The notes: a model not told the origin generated them from the letters alone. Shown: positions 3,905-32,000, numbered from the stretch's first letter. The stretch: DNA of 32,000 nucleotides from Candidatus Saccharimonadota bacterium (GCA_963706795.1 OY970170.1:630001-662000); one strand, 5' to 3'. A program made the numbers and translations.

Positions 3905-6900
3905 ATGAAGTTATTCCAATCTTACGGTCTTATTCGTGCACTTTTCCAAGAGGCCGAATCTCGTGCGAGTGCACCATCCACTCCAACTACCACTCCTATT
4001 GAGACAGTAAAGTCTACGACAGTTCTCGCTGATGCTGCAAGAGATGCCAAAACAAAGGCGGATCTTCTTTCGGCGATTGCTAACTCTCATCTTCCAGATG
4101 ATCAAAAAGCATCACTTGCTGAGGAAATCAACAGCCAGGAAGAGTTTTCACTGCTCGTAAGTCGCGCAATGTCGGCGCTCCGATCCGGTATGTCCCGAGA
4201 TCAGGTTGCATCGATTTTTGTACAGAGTTCTGGCATTGATGAAGCCAAGGCTCGCAAGCTCGCCGTGAGTGTGGTCGCGGTCTATGAGGATTCTAAAAAA
4301 TCTCTTGGTACACTCTCAAACGTACACAAGACTCTTGCGAGCATTCGCCCAGCATTCGAAGGTCGTCTTCGTTTCAATGATGCACTCGATGTGCTTCTTA
4401 AAAATCCAGAACTCTTTGCGGGCTTTACAAAAAATGACACACGCATTGTATCAAACAATATGGATTCATTTGATGCAAACACTGGATCTCAGCGTCTTGA
4501 GGCTGCGCTTACATCAAGTAACTATTTTGGGCTAGCACAATGGGGTACTGGTGAAAACAACTATACACAGTCAGAACTCGCGGCCATCATCGAACTCCGT
4601 GATGCTATCAATAAGGATCCAAAGACATTTGCACTTCTTAAGAACGGTACAAATATCCAACGAACAGTCCGCATCGTCAAAACTGCAGATGCTATGGACG
4701 AAAAAACAAAGTCACAAAATCAGCTCGCGAAGCTCCTCGACTTTAGTAATGATGGACTTCTTACATCGACCAATCACAAAGAAAAAAGCAGCAATCTCAT
4801 TATTGCGACATTTCAGGGGATATTTGGTGGTGGAAAAGATGCTCAGCTCCATGTTGCGACAGAGCTCGCAATGTATCTCAATCTCAAGGACCGAGCAACG
4901 ACAGAAAAGGGTCTTGTAGATATCATCGCAAAGGTTACTGGTCACGGATCAGAGTATGTGGAGGCACGCCTCGATGATCCAAAGAAGTTCGCTCTTCTCG
5001 TAAAGGAATTCCAGTTTTCGTTCCTCAATCAGGTTGCTGATACTACGCCTCAGGTTGCGGCAAAACTCGATGAAAAAACTTCTCAGGAATATTCATCCGA
5101 AAAGATCAAAGAGCAGAATGCAGCGATGAAATTCATCACTAACGCGCTCAAAAAAGAAGAAATGCCTGCTCTCGTCAATGCTAAGCTCAAGGCTGCCGGT
5201 TATCCTGCACTTGAGGGCAAGACGATGGAAGAACTCCTCGAACGTACGGCTTTCCAGATTTCTCTTAATCCACGTTTCTACTCATCAGTCGGAGCAAAGA
5301 TGAGTGTGACCGAAAAGACGTACAACAAAGAGATCATCACTGAAAATGTAAAGCTCATCCACACAATCGAAATTACCAACGATATCACACACGATCCAGG
5401 TACAACTATCGAACACACAAAAACAATCGATACCAAGACGTTACTTGATCGCAATGTCGTGATTGATGGGAATACTGGTAAAGTCATCTCTGATACCACT
5501 GTGGATACTGGTAAAAAGAATGTCACCATTACCGAAGCAACAAAGACCGTCCAGACTCGTACGCCAAGTGATACTTGGAAGTTCACAAAGGTTGATAAAG
5601 GAACTCAGACCGTAGTTGGTAAGACCGAAGTCACTCGTGAATCTGAAACAAAACGCGCATCTAAGCTCATCCCACATATCGTGGTTGGATTTAATCTCGG
5701 TGCATTCCAGGTGGAAGGCAAGGGATATTCGGCTGATGCTGGTGTCGGGGTCTCTGCAGTAGCTGGAGCTGATGGGGTTGTATTCCCAATCTCAGTTTCT
5801 GGTCGCGCAGACGTGGGCGTAGTAAACCGAAATGAATTTCTCCAGACAAGTAATCTCAAGGGTAATTTCACCGTTGGTGGCGAACTTGGATTTACAAAGA
5901 CGGCTGGAAATTCGGTGGTTCCATCGCTCGGATTTAATATCAATCCAAATAACGCGATCGATACTATCAAAGAAAAGCGTGTCGAGATCAAGGAGCTCTG
6001 GCCACTTCTCGGACTTACCCCAGATGGAAAGCTCGATGATAGCAAGATCCAGGCCCGACTTGCTGATCTCATCAAGGAGGCAAACTCAAAAAATCCCGTA
6101 GATGAAGAAATTCTCATGCGAGTTTCTATCATGATGAAGATGCTCGATGGAACAAAGAAGGTTGTTGAAACAACGAACATGACTGACGAGCAAAAACTCC
6201 ATGTACTTCGTAAGACTGCGTCTTTTGAAAAGACATATATGGCTATGGTTCATCAGAACCTCAGCGGACTTCGTGTTGCGGGTGTGAATATCACGGTTAT
6301 CCCAATGATCCATGCGATCTTCTTGGGTCTCAATCTCCAATATGTGAGTCATTCTGCCTCAAAGGACAAGGGAGTTGATGCTACCGAGAGCAAGGTTTTG
6401 AGTAAGAAGCACGCTGATCTTGCAAATGCCGAAACAATCAAAAAGTATGTAACGAGCTTTGATAAAACAACCGGAAGTATCTTGGTTAATCGAGCGGATG
6501 TTGAGGCAGGTATCGTCGTAATTGGCGAATCTCTTCAATCAACTGCCGAAGGAAATAACATCCGCGTAACTCCTCCAGTTACGAGCAAGCTCCGCATTGA
6601 GAGTCAATATTTTGTTACCGGAGAAGGAATTGCCACAACCGGTATCTCAATCGGTGAGGAAAAGGGATTACCAGCTGTCGCAGCTGCTCCAAGCGCTCCC
6701 GTTGCTCCAACAGAAGCTGGTGGCGAATTTAAGAACAGCTATGACAAAGATCTCTTTGGTAAGCAGATTCGCGATGAGCTCTTTGCTCTCGCTCATGATT
6801 CACGCAATACTGCGTTTATCAAGGCACTCAATAGCCTCATGGGTCACAGTGACTATGCCGGAGCTGAGGATCTCATCCGCAAGGGTGGAAAGAAACTCAA

Positions 6901-8074
6901 ATTCCTCACGATTGCGCTCGACAATCCAGGTGCCGACAAAGAAGCCATCATCCGCAATGCGCTTCTCGTAACTTCTGGTGGACGCGAAACTCGTGGTAAA
7001 GAAATCACGTATTCGACTGCAAAGCGAGTACATGATCGCACAAAGAACGCATTTGTTCGTCAGTTGGGCGTAACTGAGGCAGATTATGATGTGTTCATAA
7101 AAGCATACAATAAGTATGATGATCTCCTCATGCGCAATGAAAAGAACGCTAGTGTTCAGGAAGGCGGTCTCAATAAGAACGAAAAAGTAAAATCAGCACC
7201 ACTCTCGCTCATTCTCGGTAACGAAAAAGCGAACTACCGTGAGATTTCAGGAGTTGTAAATTTTGCTCAGATCGATAATCGTACTCACAAACCAACAGTT
7301 CGTGGAACATTCCCATTTAATGGTGACATCAGTGTTATTGGTGGATCAGCCGAAGTTGGAAATGGAGTTATGAAGGGATACATCCTCGGACTCATCGAAA
7401 AGTCTGGTGATCTCCAAAAAAATCTCGACAAAGCCAACAAGGCTATCCCAGGAGCTCGCAAATTCTCTATGGATGAATACAAGAGCTTCCTTCTCGAGGG
7501 TACGCTTCCTACAGACCTTGCAAATGTTGTATCTGCTGAACCAAAGGCAAAGTTTATCACGACTCGTGCTATGCTCCCAGGATCTGAGTGTATCAATGAC
7601 ATCTACGCAATTGCCTTCCCAGTAGTAAAACCGCTCGCAGGTCGTGCAGAAGTTGCACCACCACTCGATCATTCTCCAATCATCATCGAAAAGGAACAAG
7701 GAAATACCTACACAAATCAGGATGGTGTTTCGAGTTTGACACTCGGTATTGATTACCGAAAGGCATTAGTACAGGAGGCTTTCAATGAGTCTGTGCGCAG
7801 AAAAAATATAACAACAGAAGAAAAGGTGGAAACAAGGACAACTAATAAGGATCTTCCGCCAGGAGAATCATTTAAGACAGTGACTACTGGAAATCCTGTC
7901 ATTACAACAACGACAACGACTACTCCGAAGACTCCAGACATTCCAGTGAAACCAGTTGACGATACTAAAACGCCATCCACAAAACCAGTAGAAACACCAA
8001 CGCTTCCAAATGTAAATGGTGGAACTAACAACAACGGTGGTAATCAGACAACAACAGTTACCGAAGGCTTCTAA
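3905..8074 (+). CDS. Giant orphan protein (1389 aa) with a central beta-rich region and a C-terminal Thr/Pro-rich tail
   Basis: One uninterrupted ORF, with an in-frame TAA at 3881-3883 just upstream. There is no obvious signal peptide. I recognise no family. The tail reads TTTTTTTPKTPDIPVKPVDDTKTPSTKPVETPTLP. Zero UGA codons in 1389 codons. Confidence 0.85.
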   Translation: MKLFQSYGLIRALFQEAESRASAPSTPTTTPIETVKSTTVLADAARDAKTKADLLSAIANSHLPDDQKASLAEEINSQEEFSLLVSRAMSALRSGMSRDQVASIFVQSSGIDEAKARKLAVSVVAVYEDSKKSLGTLSNVHKTLASIRPAFEGRLRFNDALDVLLKNPELFAGFTKNDTRIVSNNMDSFDANTGSQRLEAALTSSNYFGLAQWGTGENNYTQSELAAIIELRDAINKDPKTFALLKNGTNIQRTVRIVKTADAMDEKTKSQNQLAKLLDFSNDGLLTSTNHKEKSSNLIIATFQGIFGGGKDAQLHVATELAMYLNLKDRATTEKGLVDIIAKVTGHGSEYVEARLDDPKKFALLVKEFQFSFLNQVADTTPQVAAKLDEKTSQEYSSEKIKEQNAAMKFITNALKKEEMPALVNAKLKAAGYPALEGKTMEELLERTAFQISLNPRFYSSVGAKMSVTEKTYNKEIITENVKLIHTIEITNDITHDPGTTIEHTKTIDTKTLLDRNVVIDGNTGKVISDTTVDTGKKNVTITEATKTVQTRTPSDTWKFTKVDKGTQTVVGKTEVTRESETKRASKLIPHIVVGFNLGAFQVEGKGYSADAGVGVSAVAGADGVVFPISVSGRADVGVVNRNEFLQTSNLKGNFTVGGELGFTKTAGNSVVPSLGFNINPNNAIDTIKEKRVEIKELWPLLGLTPDGKLDDSKIQARLADLIKEANSKNPVDEEILMRVSIMMKMLDGTKKVVETTNMTDEQKLHVLRKTASFEKTYMAMVHQNLSGLRVAGVNITVIPMIHAIFLGLNLQYVSHSASKDKGVDATESKVLSKKHADLANAETIKKYVTSFDKTTGSILVNRADVEAGIVVIGESLQSTAEGNNIRVTPPVTSKLRIESQYFVTGEGIATTGISIGEEKGLPAVAAAPSAPVAPTEAGGEFKNSYDKDLFGKQIRDELFALAHDSRNTAFIKALNSLMGHSDYAGAEDLIRKGGKKLKFLTIALDNPGADKEAIIRNALLVTSGGRETRGKEITYSTAKRVHDRTKNAFVRQLGVTEADYDVFIKAYNKYDDLLMRNEKNASVQEGGLNKNEKVKSAPLSLILGNEKANYREISGVVNFAQIDNRTHKPTVRGTFPFNGDISVIGGSAEVGNGVMKGYILGLIEKSGDLQKNLDKANKAIPGARKFSMDEYKSFLLEGTLPTDLANVVSAEPKAKFITTRAMLPGSECINDIYAIAFPVVKPLAGRAEVAPPLDHSPIIIEKEQGNTYTNQDGVSSLTLGIDYRKALVQEAFNESVRRKNITTEEKVETRTTNKDLPPGESFKTVTTGNPVITTTTTTTPKTPDIPVKPVDDTKTPSTKPVETPTLPNVNGGTNNNGGNQTTTVTEGF

Positions 8075-8319: not shown

Positions 8320-11300
8320 ATGAAATATACGGCATATTTTGTAGGATTCCTCCTTTTCCTCTTTCCTGCGTTTGCATTCGCTGCAACCTGTGATCAGACC
8401 TTTGAAGGAACGCTTCGAGTTGGGCAGTGATATAAATTCAGTGACGAATTTACAAACAGTACCGACAATGCGCTCAAGATTGCCGCATTTCGCCCTGAGT
8501 TCAACGAGCAATATGACTACGATGGTGCTGCCGGCGTTATGCATTATGGATGGACGCCATGGATTAGCTCACGAAAGGGTGTTATCCAGCCAGGTGAACA
8601 GGGTATTATAGTTGAGACAGATACGAATTATCCAATCATCTATTCACCACCCGTTCGATCAAAGAATAATCTCACGGTTCGTTACGTAGTCGATTATCGA
8701 CGCCAAGTAAAAGGTGTTTGGAATACTAATATCGAAAGCCACAGTGAATGTAAGTCATACGAAATCACCTGGTGTGGTGATGGAGTAGTGGATTCTCAAT
8801 ATGGAGAACTCTGTGATCAGGGTGCTCAAAATGGGAAGGTAGGTTCAAGTTGTAGTGCCACATGTACGCCCGTTACAACTCCTCCGCTCGATTGTAATCG
8901 CGGTAATGTAACACTTCCACTTACTGCTCCGATTAACTCAGGTACGGCAGGTCTCTGTCAGCCAGGAGTTGCGGTAAATGGCTTTGGTTCTACGATTGCA
9001 GGTACTGCTACAAATTTCTTTTGGGCATGTGGAGCAAGTGCGATTGGTGGTGCATGTAGCGCTACCTATGATACTTCAACCAATGGTGCGCTCTGTACTC
9101 GTGGAAATATCCCACTTCCACTTACGGGAGTAATTACGGTAGCGACTCCAGGACTCTGTCCAGTTGGTCAGACTGCGGAACGCTTTACGGCAACTCCGAA
9201 TGGTACAGGTACCGACTATAGTTGGGCATGTAGTGGTTCGGCTGTAGGAGGATCATGTGCGGCAAGTTTTACAGGTACGCCAGTTACGCCAACTCCGTAT
9301 TCTGCATGTATGCCAGCGAGCCCAACAACGGATTGTTCGGCAAACCAATATGCTACGCTTGCAGCCTGTCTCGTTGCTAATCCAGGAGCCTCAGGTCGTA
9401 CATGTTATCTCAATGATGTAGCGGCTTGTAACGCAACACGAGCAACTCAGTGTCCTGCAACAGTTCTTCCAGGTATTTGTAATAGTCTCACAGCAACTGC
9501 TACGTCTTCAACAACTGGTACTCTCACAACTAACGTGACATGTACAGCGGGAGTTGGCGCCGGAGCAAGTCCAACATTCGCCATCAATTGTGGAAATGGT
9601 CAGACAATCAATGCGGCAACTGGTACTTGTACTTATGCTGCTCCAGGAAACTTTGTAGCTTCGTGTACAGTAAATAACACTACTCCAACACCCGCAGCTT
9701 GTCAGTTACCAATCAGTGTAACCAATGGCGGTGGAGGTGGTCCAGGAGCATGTCGTGCGCTCAATATCCAATCAAGTATTCAGGTAGATAACGGATATCG
9801 TGTTTCATATACTTGTACTGCAAACCCAGGAGTTGCTGGTCCAAACCCAAGTTTCCGCGTAGATTGTGGAAATGGTCAGAGCGTTGGTTCAGATGTCGGA
9901 AGCTGTTTTTATACAGCGGCCAACACCTATAACATGGCTTGTTACGTAGAAAACTCTACAGACTCAGTGAATTGTCAGAAGCCTATCATCGTTGCATCAG
10001 CTGGTGCACCACTCCCAGGTGGAGGTGGTGGTATCGGAGGTGGTGGAGGAAGTGGCTACTGTGGAAACGGCCAGATCGATGCAGGTGAAACCTGTGATGC
10101 TGGAAGCAACGGGGGAGTTCCGATCAATAATGGATTTTGTAATAACTGTCATTCTGGTTGGACAAATCCAGGAGCCTGTGCACGTGGTGCGCTCGACTGT
10201 CCTGCAGGTTGGACAAATCCAGGTGGAAACGGTATCGACATCTACTATCGAGATGGAACAACGAATGCTTCACTCCTCGTACCAAAGATCCGATCGATCG
10301 TTGGTAATGGCGTAAACGTATTTAGTCCTGGTGATGCATTCACGATCCATGCAAACTATCCAATCTATATCGGAGGACTCACAGCTGGCTTCGTCAATAA
10401 CAACACAGGTCTCGTCACTGGAAGCTCAGTCTATCACCCAACTCCAGATACGTGTATCGGAGAAGGAAAGATGCAACTCTACGAAAATGGTCCAACCGTC
10501 AATTGTGGAGATTACACACTCTTTAAGGCGGATGCGAATGGTAAATTTGATGGTACAGCCTTTATCGGTGATACCTCAGGCATCCCAGCAGGTCAGTCGA
10601 GCGCGGATGTGAATCCCTCTCGTTCTGTAGGCTCTGCAGTACGTGAAAATAACTTCTTTGTTGGACTCAACTATCTCATCGAACCAATTCCTGTACGTGT
10701 TGCTCGCTCTGCGATCAGTAATACTGCCGGAGGAAATGCCTATGTTGGAATCCAAGTTGGATATAGCGTAAATTCGATTACGTCATCCTTCATGGATAGC
10801 CTCAAGAAGGGAAACTTCACAGTAACATCTTCGTCGAAGGATATCGCAAGCTCACTCTCTTCTGCTACATCTGAACAAGTCGGCAAGGCAGTCGATGCAA
10901 ATGGAGATCAGAATGCTTCGATCACAAAGTTCTCACAAAGTTCGGATGCTATTGCTAAGACGGTAGTGATTAATTCACAGGCAGACTTCGATACCTTCCT
11001 CTCAAAAGTCGGAGACAATCCAAATCTCTATACGCTTGCCAAGGGAAAAGTCATCATCAATGGCAATCTCCAGCTCTCAGGAGTGAAGACGCTCGTCATC
11101 GATGAAGGAAGACTCGAAATCAATGGCAATATCACCTACGCCGATGCAAATGCCAGCTGGGCATTCGTCATCAAACAAGCTGGAACTGAAAAGAAAGGAA
11201 TCGTCGTTGCTTCATCAGTTACTGATATCGCCGGAGTCTATATTGTCCTCGAGGGTGATATGGTCGGAATGGGTCAAACCATCAATCCACTCGCCGTCGA

Positions 11301-11484
11301 TGGAAACATCAGTGCGAATATCGCTCCACTCGTCAACGACCGAACCTATATCCGAGCAACGCAGAATTCATCGGCACTCTCTACAGGTGTAACGATCAAC
11401 TACTCGACCCGAGCATTCAAGAATCCACCACCGCTCCTCTCGCAGTATCTTGATCAGTACAATCTCGCAAAAATCTCACGATAA
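8320..11484 (+). CDS. Giant secreted Cys-rich repeat protein (1054 aa), putative surface adhesin
   Basis: The track ORF 8539-11484 extends upstream through TGA 8428-8430 to an ATG at 8320. This exposes the signal peptide MKYTAYFVGFLLFLFPAFAFA. Two CG[DN]G..D...E.CD.G motifs occur, near 8773 and 10060. There are two 67 aa tandem Cys modules (8893-9093 and 9094-~9280). There are also two ~90 aa 'CGNGQ' modules (9478-~9750 and 9751-~10060), poly-Gly linkers, and a beta-helix-like C-terminal region. Confidence 0.85.
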
Positions 11485-11874: not shown

Positions 11875-13683
11875 CTACAGATACTTCACCATATAGTCTC
11901 CCTCAAGCACATACCCGCGTTTTGCATAATACGCACGCGCTCCAACTCCAGAGATCACGGCAATTTTTGTGATTTGTGGATATTCTGATCGGACGATATT
12001 CTCGGCACGCTCGATAAGGCGTTTGCCAAATCACATATGTTGTCCACTTCCGTCAGAACTTGCTCCGATACCGATTTGGTCGCCGAAGGTGTGGACTTCT
12101 CGGATGATTGCAGCGCCCTGCAATTGCTCAATAAAATGAGCTTCTCCCGTAAAAATCTGTGAAGGGACTCGTAGCCGCAAGAGCGAGAAGACCGTGCGAT
12201 CTACTGGATCAATAAATTGGAGGAAGTAATCTTTTCCACCGCTTGCCTCATACGATATTTGATCAAGTACCGCATCAGCTGGAATATTGTCCTTGGCGCG
12301 AATCTCTCTCGCAGAAATATCCGAACGCGTCAGTCACTTTTCCTGCATTTTTTCGCTCGTGTGTTCACGGAGATTGGAGAGTTTGGAACCCTCGAGGATC
12401 TCAGATGCTGGAATATCGCGGTAGGCGCGATTAAGCCGGACATATTCGGGGATCATGGCTTCTAGATCGGACATGAGATCAATGAGTGTGTCATCGTCAT
12501 ACGCAGTAAATCCGCCATTTTTCCAGATCTCAGTCAGCTCGGATTTGTCCGTAACGACCATCGGATAAATCTTGAGCTCATCAGGCCTAAAAGCGCTATT
12601 AGCAAAGATTTCCAGCATACTTGCGCGATCCATATCCGGTGTCGAACCCAAGAGATTTGGCATCATATGGGCAACTACCTTAAATCCTGCATCTTTGAGT
12701 AGCCTCGTCGCTTCGGTGGATTCAGTATTACCATGACCACGTTTGTTGAGCTCGTTGATGGCATCATCAGTTGTTTGGTACCCGATTTCTACGCGAGTAA
12801 TTCCATAGTTTAAAAGCCGTTTTATTTCCTCGGCATTAATCCAGTCAGGACGCGTCTCAATCGCCATTCCGATGACACGAGAATGCGCGGTTTCATTTCG
12901 CTTTTTAGCTTCAGCGAGTGATGTAGAAGCCTTCATTTCATAGCTCTTTTTGAGTTTGAATTCTGCGAAGGGATCAGTTTTGTTGGCCTGTGCCTCGAGA
13001 AAACCCTTCATCTCATCAAAAGTTGTGTGCCCGTCATAGATGCTTTTGATCACCATTTCTTGGTATTCGATCGGATAGACACTCCATGTTCCGCCGATAA
13101 TGCGGATGTCGCATTTTTCGATCAAATGACCCGTTAATTCGAGTGACCGAAGTCTATTCTGCACCTGTCGAACAGGATCAAATTCATTCATTTCAGCGCG
13201 CATCACTGCAGGTTCGTGTGGCACGTAACTCTTTGGAAGGTTATCAAAAGTTGGACAATACACGCATTTGCCAGGACATCCCCAAAATTTAGTAAGCAGC
13301 GAAATAACTGCCACTCCTGAGAGCGATCGCACAGCACGTTTGCGGAGGATTCGAATAATTCGCGTATCATTCTCAAGCTTGCCGAGACTGATGAGTTCGC
13401 GATATCGCTCAAGCAGTCGAAAACCTGCTACAGAGCCACTTACTGGGTAACGTGCATAGATGGAATTCGCAAGTTTCTGGAAGTCCTGTTTGTCGGTGAT
13501 CGTTTTGTCCGCGTCGAGCGAGAAGAGAATCTCGTCATAAAGTTCGTTCTGCATGCGAGGATTATATGGCAACTTGCAAAACCGCCTAGTATGACTGCGA
13601 GTCAGCATATGAAATGGCTTCTGATTGCGAAAATCCTGCAAACATTTTTTGACTTTCGGGCCAGCTTTTCTACAATACGTCAC
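11875..13683 (-). CDS. elp3: Elp3-like radical SAM/GNAT enzyme (tRNA wobble-uridine carboxymethylation family)
   Basis: The radical SAM cluster motif is 'CPGKCVYCP', within an Elp3-type core. ORF 12334-13683 continues through TGA 12334-12336 and TGA 12031-12033 into a GNAT domain. That domain contains 'GQHM(G)FGKRL', the acetyl-CoA Q/RxxGxG motif whose first Gly is a UGA. The TAG stop is at 11875-11877. The start is more likely the Met at 13554 ([11 protein letters not shown]) than 13683, which sits 4 nt from the tRNA. Confidence 0.85.
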
Positions 13684-13686
13684 GTT

Positions 13687-13765
13687 GCGAGGGTAACATA
13701 AAAGAGTGAGTGTACTGAGGCTTCAACCCTCGGGTGTGCCGGTTCGAACCCGGTCCCTCGCTCCA
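13687..13765 (+). tRNA. tRNA-Gly(UCA), the UGA-decoding (recoding) tRNA
   Basis: The acceptor is GCGAGGG/CCCTCGC. The anticodon stem is TGAGG/CCTCG. The loop is C-T-TCA-A-C, with the anticodon at 13723-13725. The variable loop is 5 nt. The T arm is GCCGG-TTCGAAC-CCGGT. U73 and CCA are encoded. G1:C72, C2:G71, G3:C70 and U73 match bacterial tRNA-Gly identity elements. The D arm is atypical (a 20 nt D region with no clear GG), so a covariance-model check is needed. Confidence 0.8.
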
Positions 13766-13791
13766 AATTTTGCAGAGTCATACTCTATTCT

Positions 13792-13868
13792 GCGGATGTA
13801 GCTCAATTGGCTAGAGTACCGCCTTGCCATGGCGGCTGTTGTGGGTTCGAGTCCCATCATCCGCTCCA
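13792..13868 (+). tRNA. tRNA-Gly(GCC)
   Basis: Canonical cloverleaf: GCGGATG / GCTC-AATTGGCTA-GAGT / CCGCC-TTGCCAT-GGCGG / CTGTT / GTGGG-TTCGAGT-CCCAT / CATCCGC-T-CCA. The anticodon is at 13826-13828. Confidence 0.95.
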
Positions 13869-13914
13869 AATTTAGGTATCAAGCATAAGTTCATTAATGA
13901 TGGACTCGAACATA

Positions 13915-13937
13915 GGGAAGAGTCCCATCTCCGCTCC
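13915..13937 (+). pseudogene. Decayed copy of the 3' T-arm/acceptor half of tRNA-Gly(GCC)
   Basis: GGGAAGAGTCCCATC-TCCGCTCC compares with GGGTTCGAGTCCCATCATCCGCTCC of the tRNA 70 nt upstream. Confidence 0.35.
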
Positions 13938-13954
13938 TATGTAATTTCAAGAAG

Positions 13955-13984
13955 AAAAAGACTCTGGAAAGAGTCTTTTTCTTT
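13955..13984 (+). terminator. Rho-independent terminator after the tRNA-Gly pair
   Basis: Stem AAAAAGACTCT, loop GGAA, stem AGAGTCTTTTT, followed by CTTT. Confidence 0.75.
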
Positions 13985-14356: not shown

Positions 14357-14695
14357 ATGGCTAATTCCCACGGACTTTCACCCCGCATCGTCAAAAAGCA
14401 AGCTGCAGCCCGCAAGCTCTCAAAAGGAAAAAAGAAATCCTTTGCGGTCTATATCGGCAACGAAAATGCGCAAACTCGTAAAAATACGAGTTTCAAACGA
14501 CGTAAGCACTACATGGAAAACAAGCAAAATTTCCCGTCCAAACGTCTCCCAACCAAGAACATCGAAGCCCTCATGGAGCTCGGAATCCTCGACGAACGCG
14601 GATTCTTCAAGAAAGGGAAGAAGAAGAACTACATAACCAAGTCCATGGTGGATATCAAGGGGTTTGACTATTACGGACTTCCGCGCGCTGCGTAG
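14357..14695 (+). CDS. Very basic hypothetical protein (112 aa), translationally coupled to the acidic ORF
   Basis: The ATG lies 1 nt after the upstream TAA (TAATATG). The protein is Lys/Arg-rich (MANSHGLSPRIVKKQAAARKLSKGKKK...). I recognise no family. Confidence 0.6.
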   Translation: MANSHGLSPRIVKKQAAARKLSKGKKKSFAVYIGNENAQTRKNTSFKRRKHYMENKQNFPSKRLPTKNIEALMELGILDERGFFKKGKKKNYITKSMVDIKGFDYYGLPRAA

Positions 14696-14752: not shown

Positions 14753-14830
14753 GCAGCCGTAGCTCAGTTGGATTAGAGCGCCTCCCTGCGAAGGAGGAGG
14801 TCACTGGTTCGAGCCCAGTCGGTTGCACCA
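14753..14830 (+). tRNA. tRNA-Arg(GCG)
   Basis: Cloverleaf: GCAGCCG / GCTC-AGTTGGATTA-GAGC / CCTCC-CTGCGAA-GGAGG / AGGTC / ACTGG-TTCGAGC-CCAGT / CGGTTGC-A-CCA. The anticodon is at 14788-14790. The 5' half closely resembles E. coli tRNA-Arg. Confidence 0.9.
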
Positions 14831-14834
14831 TTTC

Positions 14835-14886
14835 AAAACTCAATAATAAAACCCGTCATATATGACGGGTTTTATTATTGAGTTTT
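14835..14886. repeat. Left copy of the 44 bp direct repeat, inside a perfect 52 nt palindrome (a bidirectional terminator)
   Basis: AAAACTCAATAATAAAACCCGTCATA|TATGACGGGTTTTATTATTGAGTTTT. Positions 14835-14878 are identical to 19262-19305. Confidence 0.9.
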
Positions 14887-14891
14887 GGTGT

Positions 14892-17408
14892 TTATTGAAA
14901 AAGTGCTCGAAGAGTGCTTTTTGTGGTTGATTGGGGTATTATTTGAAATTGATATCCAGTAAATTTTCTTACCCCGTCTCTTGCTCATTCTTCAGTCATT
15001 CTCTGGAATACTAGTTCTTTATATCTCGTATCGAGATTTTCTACTAACTGATCTCATTTACTTTCTATGATATAGATTAACTCAAGTTTTCACGCTGTAT
15101 CTTGTTTTGCAATAATAAAATCAGGATATATTTTATTCTTTCTCCACGCCTGTATCTTGTAGGCACTTTCTTCCACCTTATTTCTCATCCACCATAACAC
15201 CTTTTCTTTTGTTCTGAGTTCTTCTATAACCTCCTTTTCGAGATTATTCATAGTTACATAATCCACTGCCAGATGGAGACACTTTGGATCAGTCTTGAGT
15301 GGCAGAATTGTCTCGCTATCTTCGTCAAATTTTGCTGGAGCTGAATATAATGTTGGAATTGTATAACCTCACTCTTGTGTGATTGCAAGAAATATAGTTC
15401 ACTCAGATACAAGTTTATTAAAAACAATCTCTTCATTTTTATAGCACTCACTTCTGATAAATTTCGAAATTTCATGCGCAATATATCCAAAATCACTTTC
15501 GATAGTGGGTCTATCTATTTTTTTGGATAAATTTCAGACAATTTGTTGAACGAGGTCATAGGATACAAATGGATTCCCAATATATTCTGATATTATTTGA
15601 GAGGTGATATATTCATCTCATCACTCGACATGTTCTTTTTCATATTCTATACCCTCTCAGGCATATTCTCCTCAAAGAAAATATTGGAGATCAGTACCTT
15701 GCATCTTCTGTTTTCCTACAGTTTTTATGAGTACTTCCAAAAGTGGAGCAAGGTCTAGATTATTCCAGTCTATTCGAGGAAGAATATCTGATCTATATGA
15801 CAATGCACGAATCCCGTGAGTATCCTCTATATGCCAAATTGGAAGCGAGAGAGATTCTGGATATTCTTCGATAAATTGAGATTGTATAGAGAAATCTCTA
15901 TACATGAGTCATTTTCCACTTGGTCCTGAGCTTCCTTTGACCGTATCGATTATGTCTTCGAGCCCGTCACTTTCCAGAGATTTTTTGATTCCCTTGAGAA
16001 GCTCCTCACTATCTGAGTGATTGAAATACGCATAACACTGATCGAGTTCCGATATACCTGTACGCTTTGTGTATGGTTGTCTCAAAACACGCCCTATAAG
16101 CTGAGTGAGGGCAGTAGTACTACTGGAAGTAGGAATCACTCATAAAACATAAGCAAAGGGGCAATCCCAGCCCTCCATAAGTGCCTGTTTGGTGATAATA
16201 TATCGTATATCTGAATCTTGAGACATGAGGACCTCATCTTTGAGTTCGTCGATATATGATGATTTTATAGCTATCTGATTGCTTGGTATTCCTATCTCTA
16301 CGAGATACTCTTTTACATCGTCAGCGTGGACATGAAGCCCATCTCTCTTGTCCTTTCCAGTTCTATCCGCTTGGAGGAGTGCTATAGGTCTGATATAGTC
16401 ACCTTTTTGCTCTTTTAGTCCGAGTGCTTTCTTTTCAAGTTCTTCTCTCTTTTCTCGTACATCATGTATGAGTTCCCTCCAGTTATCATTTGACTCTGGA
16501 CGGACATTGATAGGGAGCTTTATCATCTCATCTCTATAGAGGTCCATTCACTTGATAGTGACGAGGATATTCATCCCAGCTTTTGGCGTGGCGGAGAGTC
16601 CTATCATACATCGAGGATTGAGAGAATCGAGAACTCTTCTCTGAGCATCAGTATAGACCTTATGAAACTCATCCACGATAAAAAGCGGATTACATACTCG
16701 TATGATATTTCCGAGACTTGTCTTTATTTGTTTGACTCATAGGAGGTCTTGCTCGAAGCAATCGAGCATAGGGAATTTTTCCACAAGAGCATCTATCTTA
16801 TCTTTCTCATGCTCCATAGGGAAGAAATCCATAAAATTCCCAGAATCTCGAAAGACTCTCAGATTTTCTTTTGTTTCTTGATTGGCTGATTGTATCATCA
16901 CCATAAGCACGACGAGGTTTTCTTGAGTATCTTGCCATCGTATTGCATCGGTTTTTTCGAGTATAAGGGTTCTATCACCACTTACCTGATCGAGCATCTG
17001 CCTATAGGGATTTGTCTTATCTTTGAGCTTCTCTATTGTCTGGAGGTATATAGAATCCGTATGAGTTACCCATACGATGAGTCCTGTTCTCTTTTCGAGG
17101 AATTGGTTTTGATAGTGCTCTACGGTTTTGATACCAAGTAGTGTCTTTCCTCCACCTGTAGGCACTTTGATACAGAGGCGTGGATATATCACTCATGCAC
17201 TTTCTGGAATATCAGAAAAATCCCTATATTCTGGAGTTTTTGTATATATCTCTTTTACTGGAGGAATAAGTGAAGCAATCATAGAGTCGAGTCCTGCCAT
17301 CTTCAATTTCTGGAGTTTATCATTGTACGAAAAAGACTCATCTTTCCATTTTTGGAAAAATGTCTCAAGTGTAAGTACCACTTTTTGTTGAGAGCTTTTT
17401 AGTAACAT
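14892..17408 (-). CDS. res: Type III restriction enzyme Res subunit (838 aa; SF2 helicase plus C-terminal PD-ExK nuclease)
   Basis: One frame, re-stitched through 15 TGAs. Motif I is 'VPTGGGKT', motif II is 'VDEFH', and there is an 'EGWDCP' box. Motif VI is 'QLIGRVLR'. The C-terminal 'YPDF...IIESKG' matches PD...ExK. The TAA stop is at 14892-14894. The start lies 2 nt after the mod stop. Confidence 0.85.
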
Positions 17409-17410
17409 AA

Positions 17411-19105
17411 TTATTTTCTTTGGAATAGATTATAAGGTACTTGTACGAAAGATATATGATTATCATCGAGGACCTCTTTATCGAGGAAGCACGCTGGAGC
17501 ATATACTATTTTCTTTCCCTCTGTAGATTTTACGCTTTCGAGCCAGTCACGAGTGATAGCAAGATTGCGGAGTTCCTCTATAGTATCTGCATATATGAGA
17601 TATACACCTGTATTTCGGTCCTCAGTACATATTTCCCATGTAGAATCTGGATCAGCAATATCATCTATTGGCTTGCCTGTAGCAAGGAAGTAGACATACT
17701 TTGCGAAACTTTCCCAGCTTGGAAGTGATTCTCATTCAAGGATTTTTCGTCACTCAATAGATGGACCAAGATTATAATAGGTAAAACCGACAGCGAGATC
17801 ATATTTTTCTACTACTTTTTTTATGCGGTCACGAGTTATTTCGTGAATAAAATCATATCAAGCTGATTTTGCCTGTGCCTTTTCTGTAAGAGTTTCTGGA
17901 AGTTGTACGAGGATAAATTTTCTATTTCCACCATCCTCTTGATTCAATTCCATAATAGCCTGTGCAGTTGTTCCAGATCCAGCAAAAGAATCAAGAAATA
18001 TTCCATTCTCAGAATTTGGAATAAATCAAAAGAAATACTTGAGCATATGCTTTGATTTCGGATTATCAAAGACTTTTACTCCACCAAACAATTCTGTAAG
18101 TTCGTTTGTACTTCAGCGACCATCCTCATAATAAAGACTTCGGAAACGATCCGAAATATTATCCAATCTTATTTTTGGCTTAATTAAAGTTGTCTCGTCT
18201 TTTCAAAACATTATGTCCTTATTCTTGAGCATATCAATCATCGTTGCCTCTGAAAATCTATATCAATTCGGCGGTAACGAACAAACTTCTCCAGTTAGTG
18301 GATGAACAACATCATATGTATACCCTCAAAGCCGAGTATTTGAGATATCTCAATCATGAAAGACTCATTTTTCATCAACATTATCGTAATGAGTTACTCT
18401 TTTTAAAGCATTTTCATTTTCTCGTATCCATTTTCTGAGTAACTTTTGAATTTTTTCAAAATCATCTCCAAATTCTTCTTTTAGTTCTGCATATTTTGTA
18501 TTTATCATCATTCATCAATGACTCATATTCTTCCAGTAAGTCTGAGAACTCTTATTTTTTGAATATATCAAAACATATTCATGTTCCATTACAATCTGGG
18601 TAGGATTATTATCTGTGGCAGTTTGAACGACTACAGTACCCAAAAAATCACCCTCCCTAAAAATATCATCACATAGAGATCTGAGATTATTTACCTCATT
18701 TTCATCTATCGAAATAAATATCACTCCATCTTCAGCAAGAAGCTCTCTCAAAAGTTTGAGACGAGGAGTCATCATACAGAGCCACTTATCGTGACGAGTC
18801 ATATCCTCTTTATCTATAACTTTTCCGAGCCATTCTTTTATAATGGGACTACTTACATTATCATTATATGCCCAGCCCTCTTTTCCTGTATTGTACGGGG
18901 GGTCAATATATATACATTTTACTTGCCCTTGATATTTCGGGAGGAGAGCCTTCAGAGCGAGGAGATTATCTCATTCTATAAGGAGATTTTCACTCGCATT
19001 TTCACCATCGAGAGAATTTGATTCTACTTTTTCGAGAGTGTGATATGGTACTGAGAGGTGATGATTCCAGACAGCTGATTTTCCTTTAAAATTAAGTGAT
19101 GCCAT
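17411..19105 (-). CDS. mod: Type III R-M Mod subunit (564 aa; beta-class N6-adenine/N4-cytosine DNA methyltransferase)
   Basis: One frame, re-stitched through 13 TGAs. The N-terminal segment reads 'LIE(G)DNLLALKAL'. The catalytic motif IV is 'IDPPYNTG'. It also has 'HDKWLCMMTPRLKLLRELL' and the AdoMet motif I 'DSFAGSGTT'. The mod-res gene order is typical of type III systems. Confidence 0.9.
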
Positions 19106-31157: not shown

Positions 31158-32000
31158 TTAGGAATTGATTTGAAATACACTCATACTCTTGGTAAGTCCT
31201 TGAGCTTGTGAGGTAAGTGATGCGGTTGCAGCGGCTGCTTCTTCGACCAGAGCTGCGTTTTGTTGCGTGACAGTATCCATCTGACCAATCGCTTCGCTGA
31301 TACCAGTGATATCATTGCTTTGTCTGGCAGATGCTGTGCTAATAGACTCCACGATGGCAGTAACACTGGCGATCGCTTTTACGATATCCTGCATACTCTC
31401 ACCGGCTTCGTCCACTAATTTGCTGCCCTGATCAACAGTTCTCATCGACGAGCCAATGAGTTTTTTAATCTCAGCGGCAGCGGCAGCTGATCGTTGAGCA
31501 AGGGTTCGAACTTCGGTCGCGACGACAGCAAAACCACGACCTTGTTCTCCGGCACGTGCAGCTTCTACGGCTGCATTGAGGGCTAGAATATTTGTTTGAA
31601 AGGCGATGCTATCGATAGTGCTGGTAATATCGCCAATCTTTTTGGAGCTTTCTTTGATTAATCCCATAGTTTCAATTACGGAATCAACCACCCTTCCCCC
31701 TTCAACAGCCATATTGGATGCCTGGATGGCGAGCGTGTTTGCTTGCTCGGCATTTTCGGCATTCTTTTTGACGCTGCTCGTGAGAGTTTCCATAGACGCA
31801 GCTGTTTCTTGGAGAGACGAAGCTTGCTCTTCGGTGCGGCTTGAGAGATCAAGATTTCCGTTGGCAATTTCGCTTGCTCCGATAGCAACTGTATTTACAG
31901 ACTGTCGCACTTCTCCCACGGTGTGTGCGAGATTTTCAGACATGTGAGCCACGGCTTCCATAAGTTTGCCGATTTCGTCACGGGTTGTGGCAGTTATTTT
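31158..32000 (-). CDS. Methyl-accepting chemotaxis protein. Only the C-terminal signalling domain is present, and the N-terminus lies beyond the right edge.
   Basis: It carries the highly conserved MCP hairpin core '[41 protein letters not shown]'. Methylation-helix heptads are present. The frame stays open to position 32000 and reads '..TRDEIGKL', the end of a HAMP domain. Confidence 0.9.

What the first reader, a model, noticed from the sequence alone, without database searches (positions are those of the whole stretch)
13687..13765. Recoding tRNA: tRNA-Gly with anticodon UCA, tandem to tRNA-Gly(GCC)
- A 79 nt cloverleaf (CCA encoded) has anticodon loop CU-UCA-AC, so it pairs with UGA.
- Its acceptor end (G1:C72, C2:G71, G3:C70, U73) carries the elements that bacterial GlyRS uses for identity.
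- It has a normal 5 nt variable loop, so it is not a tRNA-Sec.
- It lies 26 nt upstream of a canonical tRNA-Gly(GCC) that shares the G1-C2-G3/U73 features. The arms otherwise differ, so it is not a recent duplicate.
- This gives a molecular mechanism, in the same window, for the reassignment inferred from the coding regions.
- The D arm is unusual: a 20 nt D region with no obvious G18G19, and a possible extra 26:44 C-G pair that extends the anticodon stem. This may matter for discriminating against release factor or against UGG.
Basis: partly seen in the sequence, partly recalled or inferred. Interest (0 to 1): 0.8.

Follow-up and report, generated by a model that had tools for sequence, protein, structure and literature searches.

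The report
Known UGA-to-glycine tRNA of Gracilibacteria
This is a genuine transfer RNA that reads the normal stop signal UGA as the amino acid glycine.

Summary
The 79-nt tRNA at 13687-13765 (+) is real. ARAGORN finds it, Rfam's tRNA model scores 44.9 bits (threshold 29), and the minimum-energy fold is the cloverleaf. It has anticodon UCA, G1:C72/C2:G71/G3:C70/U73, an encoded CCA, and a tRNA-Gly(GCC) 26 nt downstream.

The window uses TGA as a sense codon: 65 in-frame TGAs in 17 of 22 genes, and every gene ends in TAA or TAG. In alignments of three window proteins with distant homologues, TGA positions are 5.75-fold enriched for Gly (0.33). Trp is 0.000 and Cys 0.001, while TGG stays Trp.

The same 79-nt architecture recurs in 84 public loci (35 unique variants, including Gracilibacteria MAGs). 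It has a 10-nt D-loop without GG, an extra unpaired A and a 6-bp anticodon stem. Ten of 22 pairs show compensatory changes. Those loci also read TGA as sense.

This matches the published tRNA-Gly(UCA) of SR1/Gracilibacteria, including its "divergent D and anticodon arms". Verdict: observation confirmed, interpretation supported, already known. Absence of prfB could not be tested.

Side leads: an uncharacterised small basic protein gene tightly linked to this tRNA, an adjacent Elp3 gene, and strong TGA avoidance in two giant secreted-protein genes.

The parts
13649..13676 (+). Sigma-70-like promoter (TTGACT, 16-nt spacer, TACAAT) ending 10 nt upstream of the tRNA(UCA) gene
   Evidence: 10 of 12 consensus matches. 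The related locus L021 has TTGACA-16-TACAAT in the equivalent position. This is a consensus match only; function is inferred.
13687..13765 (+). tRNA-Gly(UCA), 79 nt, CCA encoded. Anticodon TCA at 13723-13725. Acceptor 13687-13693 pairs with 13755-13761. U73 is at 13762.
   Evidence: ARAGORN, Rfam tRNA at 44.9 bits, MFE cloverleaf, family covariation.
13766..13791 (+). 26-nt spacer between the two tRNA genes
   Evidence: Coordinates.
13792..13868 (+). Canonical tRNA-Gly(GCC), probably co-transcribed with tRNA(UCA)
   Evidence: ARAGORN and Rfam at 65.1 bits. The tandem order is seen in 12 of 74 evaluable related loci.
13952..13983 (+). Perfect 14-bp hairpin flanked by A and T runs. Likely terminator of the two-tRNA transcript.
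   Evidence: Inverted repeat I2, 100% complementary. The terminator scan did not call it, so its role is inferred.
14357..14695 (+). Small, very basic orphan protein gene (112 aa, pI 10.5, no TGA codons) that is syntenic with tRNA(UCA) across the family
   Evidence: Present in 59 of 84 family loci and 0 of 159 other loci. It lies co-oriented within 1 kb downstream in 47 of 70 loci with at least 500 nt of downstream sequence. No Pfam, NCBIfam or PDB match. Only 15 representative clusters among 1.84 billion proteins.
14753..14830 (+). tRNA-Arg(GCG), the third tRNA of the cluster
   Evidence: ARAGORN and Rfam at 67 bits. The same order is found in L021.
14838..14883 (+). Strong terminator-like hairpin (20 pairs) after tRNA-Arg
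11875..13554 (-). Elp3 gene (radical-SAM/GNAT enzyme that makes cm5U at tRNA wobble U34). It is divergently transcribed, with a 132-nt intergenic region shared with the tRNA(UCA) promoter.
   Evidence: NCBIfam TIGR01211 at 482.7 bits (cut-off 350). PDB hit to Dehalococcoides Elp3 5L7J at 3e-99. Adjacent and divergent at 99-153 nt in 7 loci including the window. A functional link to this tRNA is not shown.

Best explanation
This is the glycine-accepting, UGA-decoding tRNA (tRNA-Gly with anticodon UCA) of a Gracilibacteria-type bacterium that uses genetic code 25.

Proposed mechanism:
1. The gene is transcribed from its own sigma-70-like promoter, probably together with the downstream tRNA-Gly(GCC). 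The 3' CCA is genomically encoded.
2. Glycyl-tRNA synthetase charges it through the acceptor-end identity set G1:C72, C2:G71, G3:C70 and U73, which it shares with the neighbouring tRNA-Gly(GCC).
3. Its U34-C35-A36 anticodon pairs with UGA, so in-frame UGA codons are translated as glycine.
4. TAA and TAG remain the only stop codons, and UGG remains tryptophan.

Shown here:
- The tRNA exists and folds as a cloverleaf.
- It belongs to a conserved, covarying family confined to TGA-sense loci.
- TGA positions in this window's proteins correspond to Gly in homologues.

Inferred from the literature or from sequence alone: charging by GlyRS, absence of RF2, co-transcription, and any role of the unusual D arm and 6-bp anticodon stem.
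For: Detection:
- ARAGORN and Rfam both call the tRNA, and the MFE fold is the cloverleaf.

The window's code:
- Table-11 ORFs are fragmented, and reading TGA as sense restores long genes.
- There are 65 in-frame TGAs in 17 of 22 genes, and all 22 genes end in TAA or TAG.

Meaning of TGA:
- Pth residue 6 aligns with the invariant Gly of VGLGNPG in all 5 PDB alignments shown.
- In EcoP15I Mod, 5 of 12 TGA positions are Gly and none is Trp.
- In the Mod alignment, TGA columns have Gly fraction 0.49, against 0.63 for GGN columns and 0.02 for background.
- Over three proteins and 30 columns, Gly is 0.33 (5.75-fold enrichment), Trp 0.000 and Cys 0.001, and Gly has the best log-likelihood by about 34 units.

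Family:
- 84 loci carry the 79-nt architecture, in 35 unique variants.
- 99.7% of cells are paired and 10 of 22 pairs change on both sides; 0 of 500 shuffles reach this and the slid controls collapse.
- Family loci go from 0.32 to 0.88 ORF coverage when TGA is read as sense. The gain is 0.57, against 0.09 for a TAG-sense control.
- Named members are Candidatus Gracilibacteria MAGs, and the closest named Mfd relatives are Gracilibacteria.

Literature:
- The same identity rule is used to call tRNA(UCA) a Gly acceptor (PMC8629427).
- The SR1 tRNA has divergent D and anticodon arms but keeps GlyRS identity elements (PMC4695839).
- UGA=Gly in BD1-5 was validated by proteomics, and prfB is absent from all BD1-5 genomes (PMC6851277; PMC4032931).
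Against: - No isotype-specific covariance model (tRNAscan-SE) could be run, and no aminoacylation data exist for this tRNA.
- A36 departs from the C36 that is part of the E. coli glycine identity set (my own knowledge of Giege-type identity rules).
- U73 with C35-A36 also resembles cysteine identity, so the tRNA sequence alone does not exclude Cys. The codon alignments do.
- Gly conservation at TGA columns (0.33) is lower than at GGN columns (about 0.6).
- The search patterns that retrieved the family imposed C70-C72/U73 on every hit and, in the metagenome and viral scans, also G1-G3, U8-A9, A14, the T-loop core and CUUCAA. Conservation of those positions is not independent evidence.
- RF2 absence was not tested for this genome.
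Confidence: 0.93

Rival explanations
1. It is a selenocysteine tRNA, as ARAGORN labels it, and inserts Sec at UGA.
For: ARAGORN prints 'tRNA-SeC' for the tca anticodon. A 6-bp anticodon stem is also a feature of bacterial tRNA-Sec (my own knowledge).
Against: - The generic tRNA model beats tRNA-Sec in Rfam's clan competition.
- The structure has a 7-bp acceptor, 5-bp T stem, 4-bp D stem with a 10-nt loop, a 4-5 nt variable region and U73. Bacterial tRNA-Sec has an 8/5 arrangement, a 6-bp D stem with a 4-nt loop, a long variable arm and G73.
- 65 in-frame TGAs spread over 17 genes cannot all be SECIS-dependent.
- TGA columns align with Gly. Cys, the usual Sec counterpart, is at 0.001.
Confidence: 0.01
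2. It is a tryptophan tRNA(UCA), as in Mycoplasma and insect endosymbionts (genetic code 4).
For: UGA-to-Trp is the commonest bacterial UGA reassignment, and those organisms use a tRNA with the same anticodon (PMC8629427).
Against: - The Trp fraction at TGA columns is 0.000-0.004, while TGG columns give 0.68-0.70.
- The tRNA has U73 and G1:C72, not the G73 and A/G1:U72 used as Trp identity markers (PMC8629427).
Confidence: 0.01
3. It is charged with cysteine, because U73 and C35-A36 overlap the cysteine identity set (anticodon GCA).
For: U73 and GCA are the main CysRS identity elements, and some CysRS enzymes charge tRNA-Cys(UCA) (PMC5389517).
Against: - The Cys fraction at TGA columns is 0.001, an enrichment of 0.18.
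- The first three acceptor pairs are the glycine set and are shared with the adjacent tRNA-Gly(GCC).
Confidence: 0.02
4. It is an occasional opal suppressor or a decaying pseudo-tRNA, not the agent of a genome-wide reassignment.
For: Gly-type tRNA(UCA) genes also occur outside clear TGA-sense contexts, for example L014 (65% GC, standard-code contig) and viral contigs L241-L243.
Against: - TGA makes up 9% of all Gly codons in the window and up to 34% in the R-M genes. It occurs at invariant Gly positions of essential proteins such as Pth.
- No gene uses TGA as its stop.
- The tRNA is conserved with compensatory changes across 35 variants and has a near-consensus promoter.
Confidence: 0.02

Closest known systems
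tRNA-Gly(UCA) of candidate division SR1/Absconditabacteria and of Gracilibacteria (BD1-5); NCBI genetic code 25 (Campbell et al. 2013; Rinke et al. 2013; Hanke et al. 2014)
   Same: - UCA anticodon.
- G1:C72, C2:G71, G3:C70 and U73.
- D and anticodon arms that diverge from ordinary tRNA-Gly.
- Host genes full of in-frame UGA that align with Gly, with TAA and TAG as the only stops.
- Near-identical 79-nt genes in MAGs named Candidatus Gracilibacteria (L021, L048, L081, L093).
   Different: Nothing essential. This copy is a unique sequence variant (A4:U69 together with G:C at the third anticodon-stem pair and T stem GCCGG). It comes from a lineage whose Mfd is only 46-50% identical to named Gracilibacteria. 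At 43.7% GC it is at the high end of the family's range (0.18-0.46).
tRNA-Trp(UCA) of Mycoplasmatales/Entomoplasmatales and insect endosymbionts (code 4)
   Same: A dedicated UCA-anticodon tRNA reads UGA, and RF2 is lost.
   Different: The amino acid is Trp, not Gly, and the identity elements differ (G73). Reading of UGG by U34 wobble is harmless there but would cause Trp-to-Gly errors here.
Bacterial tRNA-Sec (selC)
   Same: UCA anticodon, a CUUCAA-type anticodon loop and a 6-bp anticodon stem.
   Different: tRNA-Sec has an 8/5 acceptor/T arrangement, a 6-bp D stem with a 4-nt loop, a long variable arm and G73, and depends on SelB and SECIS. None of these is present.
Laboratory glyT-derived opal suppressors of E. 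coli (tRNA-Gly UCC mutated to UCA; recalled from Murgola-lab genetics, not checked here)
   Same: A glycine tRNA body with anticodon UCA inserts Gly at UGA.
   Different: Those are single-base mutants of a canonical tRNA-Gly that compete with RF2. This is a natural, structurally divergent, conserved tRNA in a genome that uses UGA as a regular codon.

Membership tests
tRNA-Gly(UCA) of code-25 bacteria (Gracilibacteria/Absconditabacteria) | Cloverleaf tRNA with anticodon UCA | tested here: met
   Anticodon TCA at 13723-13725.
tRNA-Gly(UCA) of code-25 bacteria (Gracilibacteria/Absconditabacteria) | Glycine identity set G1:C72, C2:G71, G3:C70 and U73 (the rule used in PMC8629427) | tested here: met
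   Read directly from the sequence: 5' GCGAGGG ... CCCUCGC-U-CCA 3'.
tRNA-Gly(UCA) of code-25 bacteria (Gracilibacteria/Absconditabacteria) | The host genome uses in-frame UGA, and those positions correspond to Gly in homologues | tested here: met
   65 in-frame TGAs. Gly 0.33 (5.75-fold enrichment), Trp 0.000 and Cys 0.001 over 30 columns.
tRNA-Gly(UCA) of code-25 bacteria (Gracilibacteria/Absconditabacteria) | Sequence homology to the tRNA(UCA) of recognised Gracilibacteria genomes | tested here: met
   79-nt orthologues in Candidatus Gracilibacteria MAGs L021, L048, L081 and L093. Mean column identity is 94% across 35 variants.
tRNA-Gly(UCA) of code-25 bacteria (Gracilibacteria/Absconditabacteria) | Release factor 2 (prfB) absent from the genome | not testable with these tools
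   Only 32 kb is held. There is no GGQ[HN]VN motif in the window. The literature reports prfB absent from all BD1-5 genomes (PMC6851277).
tRNA-Gly(UCA) of code-25 bacteria (Gracilibacteria/Absconditabacteria) | Glycylation by GlyRS | not testable with these tools
   This needs biochemistry. It was reported for the SR1 tRNA by Campbell et al. 2013 (recalled; that paper was not held).
Bacterial tRNA-Sec | 8-bp acceptor stem, 6-bp D stem with a 4-nt loop, long variable arm, G73 | tested here: not met
   7-bp acceptor, 4-bp D stem with a 10-nt loop, 4-5 nt variable region, U73. The Rfam clan winner is generic tRNA.
tRNA-Trp(UCA) (code 4) | G73 discriminator, and UGA positions aligning with Trp | tested here: not met
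   U73. Trp fraction at TGA columns is 0.000.

The most novel reading that the evidence does not exclude
The tRNA is the core of a conserved, lineage-specific 'recoding module', not a lone gene. The module would have three parts:
1. The tRNA's invariant non-canonical architecture: a GG-less 10-nt D-loop, an extra unpaired A, and a 6-bp anticodon stem. The stem would be the opposite of the 4-bp stems proposed to broaden wobble.
2. The orphan 110-aa basic protein encoded just downstream in most lineages.
3. In this subclade, the divergently transcribed U34-modifying enzyme Elp3.

Together these would let the ribosome read UGA as Gly while avoiding misreading of UGG (Trp).

Nothing here excludes this, but the only support is conservation and synteny.
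Probability: 0.1. Interest if true: 0.6.

Novelty: already known. Interest (0 to 1): 0.18.

Why it matters
The finding correctly identifies the molecular agent of the UGA-to-glycine reassignment in this window. That matters in practice: genes here must be called with translation table 25, otherwise most proteins come out truncated.

Scientifically it adds nothing new. This tRNA has been known since 2013 and is built into NCBI code 25. The residual value lies in three details:
- There is now covariation support, across 35 variants, for the 6-bp anticodon stem and for an invariant GG-less D-loop.
- An uncharacterised, clade-restricted small basic protein gene travels with the tRNA.
- The wobble-uridine modifier Elp3 sits next to the tRNA in one subclade.

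These could guide experiments on how UGA and UGG are kept apart when a U34 tRNA reads UGA.

Tried and rejected
- **First genome contigs pattern.** It was too permissive.
- **Campbell et al. 2013.** It could not be read by DOI or PMC id, so its content is cited second-hand (PMC4695839) or from memory.
- **6-nt-loop tRNAs.** 35 metagenome hits turned out to be tRNA-Gly-like genes with a 6-nt anticodon loop. I considered them as possible alternative UGA decoders and set them aside, because their loci show no clear TGA-sense signal.
- **Tandem tRNA(UCA)-tRNA-Gly(GCC).** I considered it as a conserved feature and rejected it: only 12 of 74 evaluable loci have it.
- **Partial tRNA copies downstream.** The 10-nt direct and inverted partial copies of the tRNA-Gly(GCC) 3' end at 13902-13929 were considered as an integration scar. 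They are too short to judge and are absent in L021.
- **Elp3 adjacency as a specific functional link.** Downgraded. 35 loci with enough upstream sequence lack it, and other lineages carry other RNA-modification genes there: RsmE-like, MiaB-like, RsmB/F and RluD-like.
- **Small basic ORF.** No Pfam, NCBIfam or PDB-profile match. The single-sequence AlphaFold model had pLDDT 57, so no fold search was run.
- **CGA/CGG-to-Trp reassignment** (reported in Absconditabacteria). CGA reads as Arg. CGG has only 7 columns and is uninformative.
- **Exact lookup of TGA=Gly translations.** The Pth and ABC ATPase translations were not found in the protein collection, so the source record's own annotation could not be inspected.

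Full report
**Observation.** The window contains three tRNA genes on the + strand:
- a 79-nt tRNA with anticodon tca at 13687-13765,
- tRNA-Gly(gcc) at 13792-13868,
- tRNA-Arg(gcg) at 14753-14830.

Rfam's general tRNA model matches all three. The UCA tRNA scores 44.9 bits against a gathering score of 29 (E 1.3e-6), and this model wins the clan that also contains tRNA-Sec. The minimum-free-energy fold of the 79 nt is the cloverleaf.

Read from the sequence, the parts of the tRNA are:
- acceptor GCGAGGG/CCCUCGC, giving G1:C72, C2:G71 and G3:C70;
- U8 A9;
- D stem ACAU/GUGU;
- a 10-nt D-loop AAAAGAGUGA with no GG;
- one unpaired A;
- a six-pair anticodon stem CUGAGG/CCUCGG;
- anticodon loop CUUCAAC;
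- four unpaired variable nucleotides;
- T arm GCCGG-UUCGAAC-CCGGU;
- U73 and CCA.

The spacer to tRNA-Gly(GCC) is 26 nt, and that tRNA has the same G1-C2-G3/U73 end. ARAGORN's label 'SeC' appears to follow from the anticodon alone, since no tRNA-Sec feature is present.

**The code used by the window.** With the standard bacterial code the window breaks into short ORFs. Reading TGA as sense restores long genes:
- mfd, frr and an Elp3 homologue;
- a type III restriction-modification pair;
- a subtilase;
- a two-component system;
- pth, an ABC transporter, an SDR and grpE;
- a methyl-accepting-type signalling protein.

I counted 65 in-frame TGAs in 17 of 22 genes. All 22 genes end in TAA or TAG.

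To find out what TGA means, I masked TGA as X and compared with homologues:
- **Pth:** position 6 falls on the invariant Gly of VGLGNPG in all 5 PDB alignments shown.
- **EcoP15I Mod:** 5 of 12 TGA positions are Gly and none is Trp.
- **Mod, 115 homologues below 60% identity:** TGA columns have mean Gly fraction 0.49 and Trp 0.004. GGN columns give Gly 0.63, TGG columns give Trp 0.68, and background Gly is 0.02.
- **Mod, Res and Mfd pooled, only homologues below 50% identity (to avoid circularity from code-25 annotations):** 30 TGA columns give Gly 0.33 (5.75-fold enrichment), Trp 0.000 and Cys 0.001. Gly is the best-fitting residue by about 34 log units. TGG stays Trp (0.70) and CGA stays Arg.

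UGA therefore encodes glycine here.

**Relatives.** Pattern scans of reference genomes, metagenomes and viral contigs, followed by ARAGORN, gave 97 Gly-type tRNA(UCA) genes. Of these, 84 have exactly the 79-nt architecture of the window, in 35 unique variants. Several come from MAGs named Candidatus Gracilibacteria. One, L021, lies on a 1.28-Mb contig with the same tRNA(UCA)-tRNA-Gly(GCC)-tRNA-Arg(GCG) order.

On the alignment of the 35 variants (A1), the cloverleaf is paired in 99.7% of cells and 10 of 22 pairs change on both sides. No shuffle out of 500 reaches this, and versions with the partners slid by 1-3 columns collapse. The details are:
- The sixth anticodon-stem pair is C:G in 33 variants and U:A in 2, and is never unpaired.
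- The neighbouring U-G pair becomes C:G once.
- The third pair alternates between A:U and G:C.
- The D-loop core A14 A15 ... G-A-G ... A is invariant, so the missing G18G19 is a conserved trait and not decay.

Caveat: the patterns imposed C70-C72/U73 on every hit and, in the metagenome and viral scans, also G1-G3, U8-A9, A14, the T-loop core and CUUCAA. Conservation of those positions is not independent evidence. The D arm, the anticodon stem, the variable region and acceptor positions 4-7 were left free.

Loci carrying the 79-nt tRNA rise from 32% to 88% ORF coverage when TGA is read as sense. That is a gain of 0.57, against 0.09 for a TAG-sense control. The window's Mfd is closest to proteins named Candidatus Gracilibacteria, at 46-50% identity. 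Its frr protein occurs identically on a 1,267,896-bp NCBI/ENA contig.

**How it most likely works.**
1. A near-consensus promoter (TTGACT-16-TACAAT, 13649-13676) ends 10 nt before the gene. L021 has the equivalent.
2. A perfect 14-bp hairpin at 13952-13983 probably ends a two-tRNA transcript.
3. GlyRS is expected to charge the tRNA through the acceptor-end identity set it shares with tRNA-Gly(GCC).
4. The UCA anticodon then reads UGA as Gly.

Steps 1 and 2 rest on consensus matches, and steps 3 and 4 on published work. Shulgina & Eddy use this identity rule. A review of Campbell et al. 2013 states that the SR1 tRNA-Gly(UCA) keeps the GlyRS identity elements although its D and anticodon arms diverge. 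UGA=Gly in BD1-5 was validated by proteomics, and prfB was found in no BD1-5 genome. I could not test prfB for this genome. The window has no release-factor motif.

**Rivals.**
- **Selenocysteine.** Excluded by structure (7/5 arrangement, short variable region, U73) and by 65 dispersed TGAs with no Cys signal.
- **Tryptophan (code 4).** Excluded by the zero Trp fraction and by U73.
- **Cysteine.** A fair rival on identity elements alone, since U73 and C35-A36 fit it. The alignments exclude it, with Cys at 0.001.
- **Occasional suppressor or pseudogene.** Inconsistent with TGA at invariant Gly positions of essential proteins, with conservation and covariation, and with the promoter.

**Comparison with what is known, and novelty.** The gene meets every testable defining feature of the tRNA-Gly(UCA) of code-25 bacteria. 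The two untestable ones, RF2 loss and glycylation, are supported by the literature. The finding is correct but already known.

A 2026 survey of anticodon-stem lengths discusses this clade only with respect to 4-bp tRNA-Trp, and does not mention extended stems. The covariation support for the 6-bp stem is therefore a modest addition.

**Things found on the way.**
- **Linked small ORF.** The most conserved neighbour of the 79-nt tRNA is a 110-112-aa, very basic ORF (window 14357-14695, no TGA codons).
  - It occurs in 59 of 84 family loci and in none of 159 other loci.
  - It is usually co-oriented, with a median distance of 127 nt downstream.
  - It has no Pfam, NCBIfam or PDB match.
  - It has only 15 representative clusters among 1.84 billion proteins, all at 60-82% identity apart from one marginal repetitive hit.
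  - A single-sequence structure model was unreliable, at pLDDT 57.
- **Elp3.** The gene divergent from the tRNA promoter is a bona fide Elp3, the wobble-U34 cm5U enzyme. It is adjacent at 99-153 nt in 7 loci including the window, but absent from 35 loci with enough flank. Other lineages have other RNA-modification genes at this position. No held paper links Elp3 with these bacteria.
- **Uneven TGA use.** TGA makes up 31-34% of Gly codons in the R-M genes and about 16% elsewhere. In the two giant secreted ORFs it is 1 of 228 (binomial P about 1e-8 each).

These are leads, not findings.

Noticed in passing
window 14357-14695 (+); homologues in 58 other related loci, e.g. L021 4650-4986: A highly conserved small orphan protein gene (about 110 aa, pI 10.5, 25% K+R, no TGA codons) travels with the 79-nt tRNA(UCA). 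It is in 59 of 84 family loci and 0 of 159 other loci, usually co-oriented with a median distance of 127 nt downstream. It has no Pfam, NCBIfam or PDB match, and only 15 representative clusters among 1.84 billion proteins. It could be a lineage-specific ribosomal or translation factor.
   Followed up: partly
window 11875-13554 (-): An Elp3 homologue (the tRNA U34 cm5U radical-SAM/GNAT enzyme, rare in bacteria) is divergently transcribed from the tRNA(UCA) promoter region. The adjacency is conserved in 7 loci including the window at 62-68% protein identity, but is absent in many other family loci. No paper found links Elp3 to Gracilibacteria.
   Followed up: partly
window 3905-8074 (+) and 8320-11484 (+), compared with 14892-19105 (-): TGA use is very uneven. 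Two giant secreted-protein ORFs use TGA for 0 of 99 and 1 of 129 Gly codons (P about 5e-8 and 7e-9 against the 15.6% seen in other genes). The low-GC type III restriction-modification genes use it for 31-34%. The giant ORFs also favour GGT, which suggests translational selection rather than import, but this is untested.
   Followed up: partly
window 13902-13929: About 35-60 nt after tRNA-Gly(GCC) there is a 10-nt inverted copy (GGACTCGAAC) and a 10-nt direct copy (GAGTCCCATC) of that tRNA's T-arm/3' end. The window also has about 470 nt more than L021 between tRNA-Gly(GCC) and the small ORF. This may be a scar of an insertion at the tRNA 3' end, but the repeats are too short to be sure.
   Followed up: partly
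metagenome loci such as L125, L126, L132, L189 (35 loci): tRNA-Gly-like genes whose anticodon loop has only 6 nt (CUUCAA, i.e. the UCC type minus one C). There are 28 unique variants, and ARAGORN reports them as 'tRNA-???'. Their loci show no clear TGA-sense signal, and several have very low ORF coverage under any code.
   Followed up: partly
L014 16-90 (-): A canonical 75-nt Gly-type tRNA with anticodon UCA sits at the end of a 65% GC contig from an Anaerolineaceae MAG. The contig is fully coding under the standard code. It may be a natural opal suppressor or a binning/assembly oddity.
   Followed up: no
viral contigs L241, L242, L243: Three IMG/VR viral contigs carry canonical-length Gly-type tRNA(UCA) genes. 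L242 (29% GC) gains 0.29 ORF coverage when TGA is read as sense and 0.00 with TAG, which suggests a phage that uses or exploits UGA recoding.
   Followed up: no
window 31158-32000 (-): A methyl-accepting chemotaxis-type signalling domain protein (MCPsignal 5.6e-51, HAMP), with no TGA among its 17 Gly codons, runs off the window end. I would not have expected it in a small-genome Patescibacteria-type organism.
   Followed up: no
window 13762-13773 and 13865-13876: Both Gly tRNAs are followed by the identical 3' trailer AAATTT after the encoded CCA (CTCCAAATTT). This may be a shared processing signal or a trace of common origin.
   Followed up: no
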